From contig CAYGED010000001.1 of the NCBI GenBank assembly GCA_964348555.1, positions 1 through 34,230 on the forward strand: a stretch of DNA of 34,230 nt. The letters are read 5' to 3'. Source of the DNA: an uncultured Coxiellaceae bacterium (GTDB lineage Bacteria; Pseudomonadota; Gammaproteobacteria; Coxiellales; Coxiellaceae). Shown piece by piece: positions 23,836 through 26,385 of the stretch; position 1 is the first letter of the stretch, and every line of letters starts with the position of its first letter. The position numbers and the translations under genes were made by a program. Below the pieces are notes generated by a model. That model had not been told where the DNA came from, did no database searches, and saw only the letters and a program-made list of their open reading frames with translations.

Positions 23836-24664
23836 TTGCGTCCTCTTTCCCCAACAGTCTGATCGTCTTTTTTTGATCATCCGACAGCGTGTGCTTTGTG
23901 CTGATCATATTGATAATACTTTCGGGTGTGTGTTTGCCGGACTTTATTACGGATTCCCACGCCTCAATATTCATGTCAAGTTTTTCGTCAGCGTAATCCG
24001 GTAATTGTGGTGGACTATCATCAATTTCCTCAATTACAAAAACCTCCTTCCCTTCCATTTCTTCCGCAGTGGGTTGAGCGCCAAGCTCATGAAACGCTTT
24101 TCTTAGCGCCTGAGCTTCGGCACATTTAGATAATTGTCCGTATGGCCGTTTCATCCACATCGAGTTTGGCGATTTATCATCGCGCGATTTGGTAGCATAA
24201 TTTTCTTTCCAAAATTCCTTTGCCGTAAACTCAGCCACATATCCCGTTTTTGTTAATCTTTTAACAGTGATTTTGCACCAAAGCGGATATGTTATTTCTA
24301 CTGATCCCAATTTTTCCGTTATATTTTCCCCGAATTCGGGCTCTGAAACGCCAGCCAGTTGTTCGGTGCGGGATGCCTGTATCCGATACAATCCGATGCC
24401 TGGCATAATCACGTCACGCATCGCTTTGATATCTTTGCCATCCCTTGTTTTTTGCCCGGTTGAACAATACATAGGAACTATATGTACTGGTCTCAACATC
24501 GGATCGAGTCCGGCTGCTTTGCAATAACTCAATACCATTTTTATGGATTCGGGCCGCGCCCCAACGTACAGCGAATTGCTAAGTACTGCGAATAAATCAT
24601 TCTCATGCCCTTTAATCACCGGCATGGAATTAGTCAGCTCATTTATTTGATCACTCTGATTCAT
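23822..24664 (-). CDS. recT: RecT-family single-strand annealing protein
   Basis: 280 aa. The motifs ...SYCKAAGLDP...PGIGLYR...MWMKRPYGQLSKCAEAQALRKAF... are typical of RecT. Adjacent to the exonuclease gene. Confidence 0.85.
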   Translation of the reverse strand: MNQSDQINELTNSMPVIKGHENDLFAVLSNSLYVGARPESIKMVLSYCKAAGLDPMLRPVHIVPMYCSTGQKTRDGKDIKAMRDVIMPGIGLYRIQASRTEQLAGVSEPEFGENITEKLGSVEITYPLWCKITVKRLTKTGYVAEFTAKEFWKENYATKSRDDKSPNSMWMKRPYGQLSKCAEAQALRKAFHELGAQPTAEEMEGKEVFVIEEIDDSPPQLPDYADEKLDMNIEAWESVIKSGKHTPESIINMISTKHTLSDDQKKTIRLLGKEDANENS

Positions 24665-24666
24665 TT

Positions 24667-25143
24667 TTACCCCCGGAGTAAAGATTGTAGGTTAACGATT
24701 GCTCTACGCAGCGCCTCTTCTCGACCTGATATTGTAATATTCGAGTAATACAAGTCAAATGCACACATAAACGCATCAAATACATTACCAACCCATTCAA
24801 TATCACATTTTTTAAGTGGGTCATCATCACTAATAGATGTCTCAAACCTCCTAATTGCCAGCGAAATATCATCCATCGTTGGATAAATCCCCTGAACTTC
24901 GATGCTTAGATATAAACACGATCTCAAATCATTTATATTTATTTCTTCTCGCGCGGTTATGTTTATGGTTTTTGGTTTTTGACGATACAGATATTCTGGA
25001 ACCCATTTAGGATGCGTAACAAGATTATTCCAGTAGCCCTCAGGCTCCTCAAAAATTTCCCAATTTTCCCAAGGCTTATCTGTTTCCATTGCATCCTTGG
25101 CATATAGCATCATAAGCTCGCCATGTATATGTTTTTTAGTCAT
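24667..25143 (-). CDS. hypothetical early protein (158 aa)
   Basis: ATG 25143 (MTKKHIHGEL...) with GAGGAA upstream. The N-terminal KPWENWE...HPKWVPEYLYRQKPK motif recurs in phage early proteins. The stop is 2 nt from the RecT start. Confidence 0.6.
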   Translation of the reverse strand: MTKKHIHGELMMLYAKDAMETDKPWENWEIFEEPEGYWNNLVTHPKWVPEYLYRQKPKTINITAREEININDLRSCLYLSIEVQGIYPTMDDISLAIRRFETSISDDDPLKKCDIEWVGNVFDAFMCAFDLYYSNITISGREEALRRAIVNLQSLLRG

Positions 25144-25258
25144 TTTGTTCCTCGCAAATTTGATAAGTATCGCACCAACGCTGAGTCGCGCCATCATCCA
25201 AATACATAACTGCTGCTGCCATTATTAGTAAAACTGCTATTAATTTTGTGTCATTCAT
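25136..25258 (-). CDS. micro-ORF, single-TMD peptide (40 aa)
   Basis: AGGATGA upstream of ATG 25258; MNDTKLIAVLLIMAAAVMYLDDGATQRWCDTYQICEEQND. Its stop overlaps the next start (ATGACTAA). Confidence 0.4.
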   Translation of the reverse strand: MNDTKLIAVLLIMAAAVMYLDDGATQRWCDTYQICEEQND

Positions 25259-25261
25259 TAT

Positions 25262-25393
25262 TCATCCTAGATTACAGATTGTATCTGATAGTCTAAAGCC
25301 ATAATTATTAACTGTCGCCTGAGCCGTCGCCGTAGCCGTAGCCTGAGCCGTAGCCTGAGCCGTCGCCTGAGCCGTAGCCGTAGCGTGGCCCAT
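25262..25393 (-). CDS. low-complexity micro-ORF, Ala-Thr/Ala-Gln repeat peptide (43 aa)
   Basis: ATG 25393 with GAGGA 9 nt upstream; MGHATATAQATAQATAQATATATAQATVNNYGFRLSDTICNLG. It fits between neighbouring ORFs with 5-nt and 3-nt gaps. One of two alternative frames across the hexamer repeat. Confidence 0.4.
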   Translation of the reverse strand: MGHATATAQATAQATAQATATATAQATVNNYGFRLSDTICNLG

Positions 25394-25421
25394 TATTATC
25401 AATCCTCGATAAATTTGTCAT
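25308..25421 (-). CDS. alternative low-complexity micro-ORF, Gly-Tyr/Ser/Asp repeat peptide (37 aa)
   Basis: ATG 25421 to TAA 25308; MTNLSRIDNNGPRYGYGSGDGSGYGSGYGYGDGSGDS. AAGAGG lies 12 nt upstream, which is long spacing. Overlaps the other frame. Confidence 0.3.
   Translation of the reverse strand: MTNLSRIDNNGPRYGYGSGDGSGYGSGYGYGDGSGDS
25317..25382. repeat. 11 tandem hexamers GCC(TGA/GTC/GTA)
   Basis: Read directly: gcctga gccgtc gccgta gccgta gcctga gccgta gcctga gccgtc gcctga gccgta gccgta, followed by a degenerate gcgtgg. Confidence 0.9.
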
Positions 25422-25509
25422 ATGTTTTTTCAGCCTCTTCTGTTGTAGGAATATATTCAATCGAGTTTGTCAGAAACGCTTCTCCAGTTCTGTTCAATCG
25501 CCCCCCTTT
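25399..25509 (-). CDS. -1 frame continuation of the 25796 gene (would give a 132-aa product)
   Basis: The -1 frame encodes RLNRTGEAFLTNSIEYIPTTEEAEKTYDKFIED. The IE.IP.TEEA segment matches what I recall as the C-terminus of homologues. This segment has no own start codon. Confidence 0.45.
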   Translation of the reverse strand, partial: KGGRLNRTGEAFLTNSIEYIPTTEEAEKTYDKFIED

Positions 25510-25796
25510 ATTCCGTTTCTTGCGACTGCCGAAAGTGATAGCCCTCCTCCCTCCCACTTCCATAAACGAAGAGCGTTTGTTAATTTCAATTCCATGGAAT
25601 TTTTTGGGTTTATCCACACAACATCCCCTATATGCACTCCAGCGCTATAGGTTCTAATCAAACATCGCCTGCCTAGCATTGGGTGTGGTTCTGTTTCAAA
25701 CACTCCTGTCGATCCCGTTAAAATAGTTGTTGGGGCTGCGGGTAAAAGATCACATATCTCTTTTAACTGCCCTAGTGTTAAATTATTTATATCCAT
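25494..25796 (-). CDS. conserved small phage protein, zero-frame product (100 aa), first gene of the leftward operon
   Basis: AAGGAAAATA-ATG at 25796. The ...RTYSAGVHIGDVVW...LRLWKWEGGGLSLSAVARNGIKGG pattern is recalled from a widespread small phage protein family. It terminates right after a G6 run. Confidence 0.7.
   Translation of the reverse strand: MDINNLTLGQLKEICDLLPAAPTTILTGSTGVFETEPHPMLGRRCLIRTYSAGVHIGDVVWINPKNSMELKLTNALRLWKWEGGGLSLSAVARNGIKGGD
25503..25509 (-). promoter_or_regulatory. candidate -1 frameshift heptamer A_AAG_GGG within a G6 homopolymer
   Basis: The minus strand reads ATA AAG GGG GGC GAT TGA, so X_XXY_YYZ is satisfied. Could equally be an indel or sequencing-error site. 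Confidence 0.4.
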
Positions 25797-25991
25797 TATT
25801 TTCCTTGATTATTTATTAAAATTCCATATACAATCATCTACTATCTTTCCTTGTTTATTACCGTCTCTCCGGCATGTCACGTCTAGTTCGCTGGCTATTG
25901 TCTTCCGACGTTCTACAAAGTGGCGCACATCGGCCATGACGCAATTATGGAAACCAGCTTCCACGCCGCACCTGCTTCCGGCGAGTTCATA

Positions 25992-26007
25992 ACAACCAAC
26001 TGGTTGT
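25992..26007. promoter_or_regulatory. 7-2-7 palindrome ACAACCA-AC-TGGTTGT (candidate operator)
   Basis: Perfect 7-bp arms with a 2-nt spacer, too short for an RNA loop. Overlaps a minus-strand TTGACA (26010-26005). Confidence 0.35.
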
Positions 26008-26054
26008 CAAGGTGCAATTCTTTTCAATCAGCCTACGCTCCGATTTGTGGCTTG

Positions 26055-26082
26055 TTGATATGCTCACTTTACTACATGTAAA
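26055..26082 (-). promoter_or_regulatory. candidate leftward early promoter (TTTACA-16 nt-TATCAA)
   Basis: The minus strand reads TTTACA (26082-26077), a 16-nt spacer, then TATCAA (26060-26055). It is divergent from the rightward promoter. Confidence 0.35.
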
Positions 26083-26116
26083 TAATAAAAGCTATACCAA
26101 ATAGAAAATAAATTTA

Positions 26117-26145
26117 TTGACATATAAATTACTAGCTGGCAATAT
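26117..26145 (+). promoter_or_regulatory. candidate rightward early promoter (TTGACA-17 nt-CAATAT) with an AT-rich upstream tract
   Basis: Consensus -35 at 26117-26122 and -10-like CAATAT at 26140-26145. The predicted start coincides with ATG 26152. Confidence 0.4.
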
Positions 26146-26151
26146 AACAGC

Positions 26152-26385
26152 ATGAGCAAATTAATCGATTATATAAATGCAATGCCCGAGCTAGACCGTC
26201 ATGCGTTTGCAAAAAAATGTGGGACTTCTGTCGGGTACATTCGCAAGGTAATGTCGTCCAGAAAAAAACTATACTTTGGCCCTGCGATATGCCGGAAACT
26301 TGAGGTTGAGACTAACGGGCTGGTTACGAGAAAAGAATTGCGGCCAAAGGACTGGCATGAAATCTGGCCAGAAATTCAACAATAA
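26152..26385 (+). CDS. Cro / YdaS-like HTH regulator (77 aa)
   Basis: HAFAKKCGTSVGYIRKVMS is a helix-turn-helix. First gene of the rightward operon, divergent from the early-left operon. No Shine-Dalgarno upstream. Confidence 0.7.
   Translation: MSKLIDYINAMPELDRHAFAKKCGTSVGYIRKVMSSRKKLYFGPAICRKLEVETNGLVTRKELRPKDWHEIWPEIQQ

What the first reader, a model, noticed from the sequence alone, without database searches (positions are those of the whole stretch)
25262..25421. Hexamer VNTR open in all three minus-strand frames: two overlapping low-complexity micro-ORFs (AT/AQ repeat versus GY/GS/GD repeat)
25317-25382 is 11 in-register hexamers GCC(TGA|GTC|GTA). On the minus strand, the sense of the early-left operon, no frame has a stop across the repeat.

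Frame A runs from ATG 25393 to TGA 25262 and encodes MGHATATAQATAQATAQATATATAQATVNNYGFRLSDTICNLG. It has GAGGA 9 nt upstream. It starts 5 nt after the stop of the frameshift-extended upstream gene and ends 3 nt before the next micro-ORF, so it fits the operon packing.

Frame B runs from ATG 25421 to TAA 25308 and encodes MTNLSRIDNNGPRYGYGSGDGSGYGSGYGYGDGSGDS. Its RBS spacing is poorer (AAGAGG 12 nt upstream). Tyr/Asp differences in frame B are synonymous Ala codons (GCT/GCG) in frame A.

I know no phage early-region peptide like either. [G/S]Y[G/S] repeats drive low-complexity self-association in FUS-type proteins. Gly-rich cores occur in microcin-type RiPP precursors, but no modification enzyme is nearby. 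A 6-nt unit is slippage-prone yet frame-preserving, so copy number may vary between relatives.
Basis: partly seen in the sequence, partly recalled or inferred. Interest (0 to 1): 0.7.

Follow-up and report, generated by a model that had tools for sequence, protein, structure and literature searches.

The report
Phage glycine-repeat microprotein gene

Summary

Comparison with relatives settles the frame.
- The upstream gene is DUF6948. It is split in this window by a 1-nt deletion.
- In 60 of 61 DUF6948 loci (42 of 42 non-redundant), the DNA just downstream encodes, in one frame only, a strict Gly-X repeat. X is mostly Ser, Tyr or Asp.
- Gly and Ser codons differ between loci, so the other two frames change or acquire stops.
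- In most loci the start is an ATG or TTG inside the last codons of DUF6948, in the +1 frame.

The window's frame B (ATG 25421 to TAA 25308, 37 aa) is the shortest complete member of this family. Frame A, which a gene caller picked, has no relatives.

Repeat number varies in-frame between near-identical phages. Cultured phages carry the gene too. In phage phiPLPE it was published as a non-coding repeat.

No Pfam, PHROG or NCBIfam family and no paper I found describes the protein.

DUF6948 models as an Sm/LSm fold, and distant DUF6948 proteins carry fused Gly-rich acidic tails. I infer that the peptide is a detached disordered tail of a phage Sm-like protein. That function is untested.

The parts
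25308..25421 (-). It ends in a double stop, TAA TAA.
   Evidence: The ORF is present. It is the only frame conserved in composition across 45 distinct homologous loci. The ATG is at -20 from the DUF6948 stop in the +1 frame, as in most relatives. The TAATAA stop is at the homologous place in the closest relative, L084.
25317..25382 (-). Hexamer array of 11 units. On the sense strand it reads (GGC-TAC/TCA/GAC)n, encoding G-Y, G-S and G-D dipeptides.
   Evidence: Repeat number differs in-frame among near-identical relatives.
25434..25437 (-). GAGG, 12 nt upstream of ATG 25421. It is a possible Shine-Dalgarno sequence and lies inside DUF6948 codons (TTEEAEK).
   Evidence: Read from the sequence. 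The stretch is identical in L084. Purine-rich GGAG/GGAA occupies the same place in relatives. Function is inferred.
25399..25796 (-). DUF6948 gene, the obligate upstream partner, with a predicted Sm/LSm-like fold. Here it is split into ORF 25796-25494 and a -1-frame continuation to TGA 25401-25399.
   Evidence: Pfam DUF6948 scores 51.5 bits for the first ORF and 63.1 bits, covering model positions 2-84 of 85, for the joined product. The joined 132 aa align in one frame with all homologs. AF2 model and Foldseek search.
25501..25509 (-). Site of the frame break in DUF6948: A_AAG_GGG followed by GGC (G6 run at 25506-25501). It is a 1-nt deletion relative to the closest relative (AAAGGTGGG).
   Evidence: Nucleotide alignment with L084.
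25262..25393 (-). Most likely not a gene.
   Evidence: tblastn of the ORF and of its non-repeat tail found no hit in 77 related loci. Composition in this frame varies between loci: A/T/P, A/M/L, A/V or E/P. A gene caller called it on the identical contig L073, the same kind of call as the MAMAMALAMA product in phage CV-1-33.

Best explanation
**What it is (shown).** The hexamer array is the body of a small gene read in frame B, from ATG 25421 to TAA 25308 on the minus strand. Its product is a 37-aa acidic, low-complexity protein in which glycine alternates strictly with Tyr, Ser or Asp. It is the shortest complete member seen of a widespread, uncharacterised phage family. That family's gene sits immediately downstream of a DUF6948 gene. 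In most members, including this one, it starts at an ATG or TTG inside the last 3 to 9 codons of DUF6948 in the +1 frame. The two genes are therefore probably translationally coupled.

**How the array behaves (shown).** Repeat number changes between near-identical phages. Because the unit is 6 nt, the frame is never broken, so tail length varies.

**How it probably works (inferred).**
- DUF6948 is predicted to have an Sm/LSm (Hfq-like) fold.
- In distant DUF6948 subfamilies a Gly-rich acidic low-complexity tail is fused to the same domain.
- I therefore propose that the peptide is a detached, intrinsically disordered tail of a phage Sm-like nucleic-acid-binding protein.
- I propose that it acts on the DUF6948 ring.
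- One way would be as an acidic nucleic-acid mimic, as the Hfq C-terminal tail does.
- The other would be as a Tyr-based multivalent self-association module.
- Either way it would tune an early-gene RNA or ssDNA function.

**Confidence by step.** The coding frame and family membership are about 0.9. The functional link to DUF6948 is about 0.7. The specific tail mechanism is about 0.3.
For: **Frame**
- Across 45 distinct loci, frame B is G 51%, S 17%, Y 12%, D 11%. The +1 frame switches between A/T/P, A/M/L, A/V and E/P, and the +2 frame carries stops in at least seven loci.
- Gly uses GGC, GGA, GGT and GGG. Ser uses both TCN (410 codons) and AGY (64 codons).
- In the closest relative, L084 (DUF6948 89% identical), the repeat uses GGT/TCC where the window uses GGC/TCA. 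Yet it encodes the same kind of peptide and ends at the same TAATAA.

**Start codon**
- The Tyr codon that creates the overlapping ATG is TAT-G in 25 of 25 non-redundant overlapping loci, and 5 more have TTT-G, giving TTG.
- TAC-G occurs only where the Gly-X gene starts elsewhere.

**Linkage to DUF6948**
- 60 of 61 DUF6948 loci (42 of 42 non-redundant) have a Gly-X ORF within 900 nt downstream, against 13 of 630 background windows.
- The other neighbouring genes are not conserved.
- Natural fusions of DUF6948 with Gly-rich acidic tails exist: P0037, P0285, P0287, P0291, P0362, P0366.

**Copy number**
- Array-bearing ORF lengths differ by 132, 60, 69, 30 and 108 nt among loci whose DUF6948 genes are at least 97% identical.

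**Cultured phages**
- Ralstonia phage NK-7 ('fibroin heavy chain-like protein') and Pectobacterium phage Koroua carry the gene.

**Fold and physical properties**
- The AF2 model of DUF6948 has pLDDT 84, with the core above 95. All of the top 50 PDB matches are Sm/LSm proteins (for example 1i8f: TM 0.79, rmsd 1.4 A, probability 1.0).
- BFVD matches include proteins named Sm-like.
- The tail of the fusion P0037 is modelled without structure, pLDDT 39-57.
- The peptides are uniformly acidic: median net charge -6, pI 4.2.
Against: - No expression data exist for any member.
- The window's copy is atypical. It is the shortest (37 aa against a median of 87). It lacks the K-x-K-H-H-G head seen in most members. 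Its DUF6948 partner is frame-broken, so this copy may be decaying or may be an assembly-collapsed version.
- The Sm-like assignment rests on a predicted model with Foldseek E-values around 1e-3 and 10-17% identity. No Sm sequence motifs were checked.
- DUF6948 proteins are not markedly basic (median pI 6.5). That weakens a simple picture of an acidic tail binding a basic ring.
- Gly-X repeats of the same type are also fused to unrelated domains (DUF7666 and others). The module may therefore have a generic role unrelated to Sm biology.
- The low pLDDT of the tail may partly reflect the lack of alignment depth there.
Confidence: 0.6

Rival explanations
1. Frame B is a real gene, but the peptide works independently of DUF6948's nucleic-acid binding. 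It would be a generic low-complexity module, for example a Tyr-sticker/Gly-Ser-spacer condensate scaffold, a silk-like beta-sheet former, or an acidic decoy for a host factor. The adjacency to DUF6948 would then reflect co-expression only.
For: The same G-[YSD] repeat is fused to unrelated domains: DUF7666 in P0003, and several unnamed N- or C-terminal domains in P0004, P0018, P0023, P0013 and P0339. The composition resembles FUS-type [G/S]Y[G/S] tracts and silk (GX)n. Loci L045 and L046 carry literal (GA)n. NK-7 annotators called the protein fibroin-like.
Against: Adjacency to DUF6948 is near-obligate (60 of 61 loci) while the other neighbours vary. The start overlaps the DUF6948 end. Fusion to DUF6948 recurs in distant subfamilies. 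AF2 gives no beta structure for the tail.
Confidence: 0.22
2. In this particular window the cassette is a decaying or mis-assembled remnant. The DUF6948 gene is frameshifted. The repeat has contracted to 11 units, either in the phage or by short-read assembly collapse. The peptide may no longer be made or functional.
For: There is a 1-nt deletion in DUF6948 relative to L084. This is the shortest complete family member. The HHG head is lost. An independent Logan contig that is 100% identical ends at 25311, at the edge of the repeat. Three of the eight places shown for another phage also end inside their repeat. Related loci L049 and L050 have clearly lost their repeats.
Against: The ORF is intact, with the conserved ATG and double stop. 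The break site A_AAG_GGG is in register for a -1 slip and could equally be a G6 homopolymer error. The rest of the operon is intact.
Confidence: 0.1
3. Frame A (ATG 25393 to TGA 25262, the AT/AQ repeat peptide) is the gene, alone or together with frame B as a dual-coding pair.
For: It has better Shine-Dalgarno spacing (GAGGA 9 nt upstream) and packs tightly between its neighbours. A gene caller chose it.
Against: tblastn of frame A and of its 16-aa non-repeat tail found nothing in 77 related loci. The equivalent frame reads VPVTVT in the closest relative and AMAL, AVAV or EPEP elsewhere. The GAGGA is simply the conserved Glu-Asp codons of DUF6948.
Confidence: 0.03
4. The array is a non-coding DNA repeat, such as an attachment site, iterons or slippage debris. 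This was suggested in print for the equivalent (KMGCCG)35 repeat of phage phiPLPE.
For: PMC3391216 (Table 3 and text) lists the phiPLPE repeat and speculates that it is a novel attachment site. The phiPLPE record leaves it unannotated.
Against: Amino-acid composition is conserved in one frame despite different Gly, Ser, Tyr and Asp codons. Start and stop codons are conserved. The repeat occurs as an in-frame tail fused to protein domains. No Rfam, promoter or terminator signal exceeds chance.
Confidence: 0.03
5. The Gly-rich peptide is a microcin-like or RiPP precursor.
For: It is a Gly-rich core with a short N-terminal leader-like head.
Against: Pfam, PHROG and PADLOC scans of the neighbouring genes find no modification, export or immunity gene. 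The conserved partner is a small Sm-like barrel. The repeats also occur as tails of larger cytoplasmic proteins.
Confidence: 0.02

Closest known systems
Unnamed Gly-X repeat genes downstream of DUF6948 in cultured phages: Ralstonia phage NK-7 XCO36015 ('fibroin heavy chain-like protein', 137 aa) and Pectobacterium phage Koroua XDF89605 (hypothetical, 89 aa)
   Same: The position is the same, directly after DUF6948. The G-[S/Y/D] alternation is the same. In Koroua the start overlaps the DUF6948 end.
   Different: They are much longer. Their DUF6948 partners are only 36-38% identical to the window's. None has been studied.
The (KMGCCG)35 'repeat region' of Iodobacter phage phiPLPE (Comeau et al. 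2012, PMC3391216)
   Same: It is the same hexamer type, directly downstream of the phiPLPE DUF6948 gene gp84.
   Different: It was published as a GC-rich non-coding repeat and a possible attachment site. It is not annotated as a gene. It has 35 units against 11 here.
Low-complexity tails of Sm-fold proteins: the GGFGGQ repeats plus acidic tip of Acinetobacter Hfq (PMC11617691). From my own knowledge: the acidic C-terminal domain of E. coli Hfq and the (RG)n tails of eukaryotic SmD1, SmD3 and LSm4.
   Same: A small Sm-type barrel is paired with a Gly-rich repetitive disordered tail. In Acinetobacter the number of repeats and the acidic residues matter for RNA binding and autoregulation (abstract of PMC11617691).
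   Different: Here the tail is a separate, overlapping ORF rather than a C-terminal extension. The repeat is a strict dipeptide G-X with Tyr, Ser or Asp. The Sm fold of DUF6948 is only predicted, and RNA binding is untested.
LSm-like fold early proteins of T4-type phages (GoF, MotB.1, Frd.2; PMC12152347)
   Same: They are phage early proteins with an AlphaFold-predicted LSm-like fold and a suspected RNA role.
   Different: They have no sequence relation to DUF6948, and no Gly-X partner is mentioned in the abstract, which is all I read.
FUS-type [G/S]Y[G/S] low-complexity domains and silk fibroin (GX)n
   Same: The composition and the alternation of Gly with small or aromatic residues are similar.
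   Different: These are bacterial-virus microproteins of 37-152 aa. They are strongly acidic, about 11% Asp in the repeat. No self-association or beta-sheet data exist, and AF2 models the tail as disordered.

Membership tests
DUF6948-coupled Gly-X repeat microproteins (family defined here from 45 distinct loci) | The gene lies immediately downstream of a DUF6948 gene on the same strand. | tested here: met
   The DUF6948 stop is at 25401-25399 and the repeat begins at 25382. 60 of 61 family loci show this arrangement.
DUF6948-coupled Gly-X repeat microproteins (family defined here from 45 distinct loci) | The start codon lies inside the last codons of DUF6948, in the +1 frame. | tested here: met
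   ATG 25421 is at -20, formed by TAT-G, as in 25 non-redundant relatives.
DUF6948-coupled Gly-X repeat microproteins (family defined here from 45 distinct loci) | Gly alternates strictly with X, X is mainly Ser, Tyr or Asp, and the net charge is acidic. | tested here: met
   The window core is G 50%, Y 18%, S 18%, D 14%. Net charge is -2 and pI 4.1.
DUF6948-coupled Gly-X repeat microproteins (family defined here from 45 distinct loci) | There is a basic/His head, K-x-K-H-H-G, before the repeat. | tested here: not met
   The window has RIDNNGPR. The closest relative, L084, has RISYRG. The motif is common but not universal, so I treat it as typical rather than defining.
Sm/LSm/Hfq proteins with low-complexity tails | The partner or core has an Sm fold. 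| tested here: met
   This holds for a predicted model only. AF2 pLDDT is 84, and all of the top 50 PDB Foldseek hits are Sm/LSm (TM to target up to 0.79, rmsd 1.4 A, E about 1e-3).
Sm/LSm/Hfq proteins with low-complexity tails | The tail is covalently attached to the Sm core. | tested here: not met
   It is a separate ORF in this subfamily, where all C-termini end ...KFIED. It is fused in distant DUF6948 proteins: P0037, P0287, P0291, P0366.
Sm/LSm/Hfq proteins with low-complexity tails | The protein forms a ring oligomer and binds RNA. | not testable with these tools
   This needs biochemistry or multimer modelling.
FUS-like [G/S]Y[G/S] self-associating low-complexity domains | There are multiple [G/S]Y[G/S] motifs. 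| tested here: met
   The 37-aa peptide has four Tyr flanked by Gly, plus one RYG. Tyr is 12% of the family's repeats.
FUS-like [G/S]Y[G/S] self-associating low-complexity domains | The domain shows reversible self-association or phase separation. | not testable with these tools
   No experiment is available. The AF2 tail is disordered, which is compatible but not informative.
Microcin-type RiPP precursors | Modification, export or immunity genes are adjacent. | tested here: not met
   The neighbours are DUF6948, a 40-aa ORF, a phrog_18768 protein, RecT and a YqaJ-type exonuclease. No enzyme or transporter is present.
Non-coding VNTR or attachment-site repeat (the phiPLPE interpretation) | No reading frame is under protein-level constraint. 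| tested here: not met
   One frame keeps its composition across different synonymous codons. The other frames do not.

The most novel reading that the evidence does not exclude
Phages encode a two-piece Sm-like system. It consists of a DUF6948 ring and a separately translated, translationally coupled, disordered acidic Gly-Tyr-Ser-Asp tail microprotein. The tail's length is set by a slippage-prone hexamer array, so it could act as a heritable rheostat (a contingency locus) for an early RNA- or ssDNA-handling function. The same Gly-X module would be a portable tag reused on several other phage domain families.
Probability: 0.2. Interest if true: 0.8.

Novelty: new variant of a known kind. Interest (0 to 1): 0.6.

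Why it matters
- **A hidden gene family.** The work exposes a widespread phage gene family. 2310 of the 8000 database candidates that were scored matched the Gly-X profile at E <= 0.001. It accompanies nearly every DUF6948 gene examined.
- **An annotation problem.** The family is missed or mis-annotated. It has been read in the wrong frame (this contig and phage CV-1-33), left unannotated, and published as a non-coding repeat (phiPLPE). Assemblies often break on it.
- **A lead on DUF6948.** The work gives DUF6948 a first structural lead, an Sm/LSm-like fold, and a testable partner.
- **A possible new arrangement.** If the tail hypothesis holds, this would be, as far as I found, the first case of an Sm-type protein whose low-complexity tail is a separate gene product. 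It would also make a small, genetically tractable model for how repeat length in a disordered tail tunes a nucleic-acid-binding ring.

Tried and rejected
- **DNA searches.** Near-identity searches of 24600-26200 against the phage and E. coli genome collections found nothing.
- **Family scans of the peptide.**
  - Pfam, PHROGs, NCBIfam and PADLOC scans of the window peptide and longer relatives gave only sub-threshold low-complexity noise (TrAA12, keratin, serine-rich protein).
  - In a separate Pfam scan of multi-domain repeat-bearing proteins, two (P0016, P0065) exceeded the TrAA12 cut-off. I read that as low-complexity matching too.
- **Exact look-up.** The frame B peptide is not on record as a called gene.
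- **Genome-collection scan.** A scan with DUF6948 returned only five loci, all from metagenome-assembled genomes of unrelated phyla. This says little about the host.
- **PDB sequence search.** A search with DUF6948 gave only a chance TonB hit at E = 0.74.
- **Literature.** Searches for DUF6948, DUF7666, seven-residue repeat strings and 'fibroin heavy chain-like' plus phage found nothing relevant.
- **Link to recombination genes.** I considered that the cassette belongs with RecT and the exonuclease. I rejected this because those genes are almost never found in the related loci.
- **+1 frameshift fusion.** I considered a programmed +1 frameshift that fuses DUF6948 to the repeat. The selected ATG/TTG argues for separate initiation, and I saw no recognisable +1 slippery site. 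I could not exclude it.
- **RNA elements and signals.** Rfam found nothing, and promoter and terminator scans were at chance level.
Full report
**1. The observation**

The plus strand at 25317-25382 is 11 in-register hexamers of the form GCC(TGA|GTC|GTA). Tandem Repeats Finder reports the array at 25317-25384 with periods 6, 12 and 24 and scores 70, 98 and 108. No other array in the window scores above 50.

On the minus strand none of the three frames has a stop across the array. Frame A (ATG 25393 to TGA 25262, 43 aa) and frame B (ATG 25421 to TAA 25308, 37 aa) exist exactly as described.

**2. Context**

- The window appears to be a whole 34,230-bp contig: one search gives 34230 as the longest contig for the window's own DUF6948 fragment, P0122.
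- It has a structural module on the plus strand. Its major capsid protein is about 50% identical to those of an Acinetobacter phage and a Paraglaciecola phage.
- It has an early-left operon on the minus strand.
- That operon reads, in order: DUF6948, the repeat, a 40-aa ORF, a phrog_18768 protein, RecT and a YqaJ/RecE-type exonuclease.
- Nothing close is in the phage or E. coli genome collections.
- An ENA contig (L073) and a Logan contig (L074) are 100% identical to the window. The Logan contig ends at 25311, at the edge of the repeat.

**3. The upstream gene**

ORF 25796-25494 matches Pfam DUF6948 over only positions 2-54 of 85. Joining it at the G-run (25506-25501) to the -1 frame that runs to TGA 25401-25399 gives 132 aa. 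This product matches DUF6948 over positions 2-84 of 85 at 63 bits. It also aligns in a single frame with every homolog found.

Against the closest relative, L084 (P0121, 89% identical), the window lacks one base: AAAGGTGGG has become AAGGGGGG. Whether the break is an assembly error, a mutation or a -1 slip at A_AAG_GGG is open.

**4. What the repeat is**

I fetched 56 IMG/VR loci that encode DUF6948 relatives at 46-80% identity. I translated the DNA after the DUF6948 stop in all three frames.

*One frame is conserved.*
- In nearly every locus one frame reads as a strict Gly-X repeat with X mostly Ser, Tyr or Asp. It is usually preceded by K-x-K-H-H-G.
- Over 45 distinct loci that frame is G 51%, S 17%, Y 12%, D 11%.
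- The next frame changes from locus to locus: A/T/P, A/M/L, A/V or E/P. The third frame contains stops in at least seven loci.
- The cause is synonymous variation in the Gly-X frame.
  - Gly codons: GGC 1056, GGA 263, GGT 92, GGG 28.
  - Ser codons: TCN 410 and AGY 64.
  - Tyr and Asp codons: about 1:1 in each pair.

*The closest relative makes the same point.* L084 uses GGT/TCC/TAC/GAC where the window uses GGC/TCA/TAC/GAC. The frame B products are of the same kind, and both end at the same TAATAA. Frame A would read VPVTVT rather than ATAQAT. tblastn of frame A and of its non-repeat tail finds nothing in any related locus.

*Start codon.*
- In most loci the Gly-X ORF is in the +1 frame relative to DUF6948. 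It starts inside the last codons of DUF6948.
- The conserved Tyr of ...T-Y-x-K-F-I-E-D is TAT followed by G in 25 of 25 non-redundant overlapping loci, which creates ATG. Five more loci have TTT-G, which creates TTG.
- TAC-G is seen only in two loci whose Gly-X gene starts elsewhere.
- The window's ATG 25421 is at this conserved position, -20.
- The JGI gene caller called exactly this ORF in L084 (4377-4634, 85 aa).

*Linkage.* 60 of 61 DUF6948 loci with at least 200 nt of downstream sequence have such an ORF within 900 nt. For non-redundant loci the figure is 42 of 42. The background is 13 of 630 windows elsewhere in the same loci. The other neighbours (RecT, the exonuclease, the 40-aa ORF, the Cro-like gene) are not shared. 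So DUF6948 plus the Gly-X ORF is a two-gene cassette.

**5. Copy-number variation**

Among loci whose DUF6948 genes are at least 97% identical, the Gly-X ORF length differs as follows:

| Loci compared | Length (nt) | Difference (nt) |
|---|---|---|
| L085 vs L086 | 223 vs 355 | 132 |
| L037 vs L038 | 115 vs 175 | 60 |
| L017 / L019 / L035 | 160 / 229 / 259 | 69, 30 |
| L045 vs L046 | 322 vs 430 | 108 |

- All differences are in-frame.
- Several contigs stop inside the repeat. The 11 units in the window may therefore be an under-estimate.
- The window's peptide is the shortest complete member: 37 aa against a median of 87 and a range of 37-152.

**6. Is it known?**

- No Pfam, PHROG, NCBIfam or PADLOC model covers the peptide. 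Scans give only low-complexity noise below cut-offs.
- A profile search of the 5.8-billion-protein collection scored 8000 candidates and returned 2310 hits at E <= 0.001. Where a source gave a name at all, it was 'hypothetical protein'.
- Cultured phages carry the cassette.
  - In Ralstonia phage NK-7 the gene is annotated 'fibroin heavy chain-like protein'.
  - In Pectobacterium phage Koroua it is 'hypothetical'.
  - In Chlorobiaceae phage CV-1-33 it was called in the wrong frame (MAMAMALAMA...).
  - In Iodobacter phage phiPLPE the repeat is unannotated.
- For phiPLPE the repeat is in print as (KMGCCG)35, a GC-rich repeat speculated to be a new kind of attachment site (PMC3391216).
- I found no paper on the protein.

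**7. How it may work**

*DUF6948 looks Sm-like.*
- An AF2 model of DUF6948 (P0121 with 57 aligned sequences) is confident: mean pLDDT 84, core above 95.
- All 50 best PDB matches are Sm/LSm proteins. Archaeal SmAP1 (1i8f) gives TM 0.79 normalised to the target and rmsd 1.4 A. E-values are about 1e-3 and probability is 1.0.
- BFVD returns DUF6948 proteins and, further down, proteins named Sm-like or RNA-binding.

*The repeat behaves as a tail.*
- The Gly-X search turned up P0037, a DUF6948 domain fused directly to a (GS/GD/GY/GF)n tail.
- A full-library search with P0037 found more distant DUF6948 proteins with Gly-rich acidic tails: P0285, P0287, P0291, P0362 and P0366. One, P0258, has an N-terminal (GP/GT)n.
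- AF2 models the P0037 tail without structure, pLDDT 39-57.
- The free peptides are uniformly acidic: median net charge -6, pI 4.2.

*Precedent and inference.*
- Sm-fold proteins with repetitive Gly-rich tails are well known. In Acinetobacter Hfq, GGFGGQ repeats plus an acidic tip affect RNA binding and autoregulation (PMC11617691).
- From my own knowledge, E. coli Hfq has an acidic C-terminal domain, and SmD1, SmD3 and LSm4 have (RG)n tails.
- My best inference is that the peptide is a detached, translationally coupled, disordered tail of a phage Sm-like protein, with its length varied by hexamer slippage.

This step is inferred, not shown.

*Caveats.*
- The fold is predicted.
- DUF6948 is not notably basic (median pI 6.5).
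- The same repeat is fused to unrelated domains such as DUF7666. A generic role, such as self-association, condensates or a decoy, is therefore a serious rival.

**8. Rivals rejected or down-weighted**

- Frame A as a gene: it has no conservation.
- A non-coding repeat or attachment site: contradicted by the codon-level evidence.
- A RiPP precursor: there are no enzymes, and the repeats also occur as tails of larger proteins.
- A known RNA or a promoter/terminator element: nothing exceeds chance.
- A remnant in this particular window remains possible. The partner is broken, the array is the shortest, and the HHG head is lost.

**9. Verdict**

- It is a short member of a large, unnamed phage family coupled to DUF6948.
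- The family itself is the interesting result. It is widespread, mis-annotated and unstudied, and it now has a concrete, testable hypothesis.
- I rate it a new variant of a known kind (Sm-type core with a low-complexity Gly-rich tail, here split into two genes), with interest 0.6.

Noticed in passing
window 25501-25509 (within the DUF6948 gene 25399-25796, minus strand): DUF6948 is split by a 1-nt deletion in a G6 run relative to the closest relative (AAAGGTGGG has become AAGGGGGG). The site A_AAG_GGG is in X_XXY_YYZ register for a -1 slip. It could be a homopolymer assembly error, a real inactivating mutation or programmed frameshifting. No homolog needs a shift.
   Followed up: partly
window 25262-25393; locus L082 1786-2031 (Chlorobiaceae phage CV-1-33 gene 25): Gene callers pick the wrong frame in these arrays. 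The 43-aa frame A product was called on the identical ENA contig. CV-1-33 gene 25 is annotated as MAMAMALAMA..., which is the off-frame reading of a Gly-X gene.
   Followed up: yes
L074 (ends at window 25311); L090, L091, L092: Short-read contigs frequently terminate inside or at the edge of the Gly-X array. Repeat numbers in assemblies, including this window, may therefore be collapsed.
   Followed up: partly
L083 about 1190-1460 (Iodobacter phage phiPLPE, record 46,046-46,255): The published (KMGCCG)35 'repeat region', speculated to be an attachment site, sits directly after the phiPLPE DUF6948 gene gp84. It is of the same hexamer type as this gene family and is unannotated in the record. 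The frame I translated reads TATAPATA; I did not translate the Gly-X frame.
   Followed up: partly
window 25136-25258 (minus strand): This 40-aa ORF, MNDTKLIAVLLIMAAAVMYLDDGATQRWCDTYQICEEQND, has a hydrophobic N-terminal half. It is largely conserved, with about 7 of 40 residues differing, and in the same position in the closest relative L084. It is probably a real small membrane protein of unknown function.
   Followed up: partly
L004, L006, L012, L014, L044, L047 (225-650 nt downstream of the DUF6948 stop): Some loci carry a second, separately started Gly-X gene downstream of the first, so the genes can occur as tandem paralogs. Several start with M-N-L-L or M-Q-N-K.
   Followed up: no
proteins P0003, P0007 (DUF7666 + repeat); P0023, P0042 (about 225 aa, repeat + unknown C-terminal domain); P0004, P0021 (repeat + another C-terminal domain): The same G-[Y/S/D/N] repeat is used as an N- or C-terminal module on several unrelated, uncharacterised protein families, mostly known only from metagenome assemblies. 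None of the partner domains has a known function.
   Followed up: partly
phrog_18306 (profile positions 53-99 and 150-238): This is the only PHROG that touches DUF6948. Its profile seems to include a Gly-X region upstream of the DUF6948 domain. That suggests members with an N-terminal repeat, like P0258.
   Followed up: no
window 24667-25143 versus L084 5021-5647: The phrog_18768 protein downstream is 158 aa in the window but 208 aa in the closest relative. The two share their N- and C-terminal parts, and the relative has extra sequence in the middle. I did not examine whether that extra sequence is a duplication.
   Followed up: no
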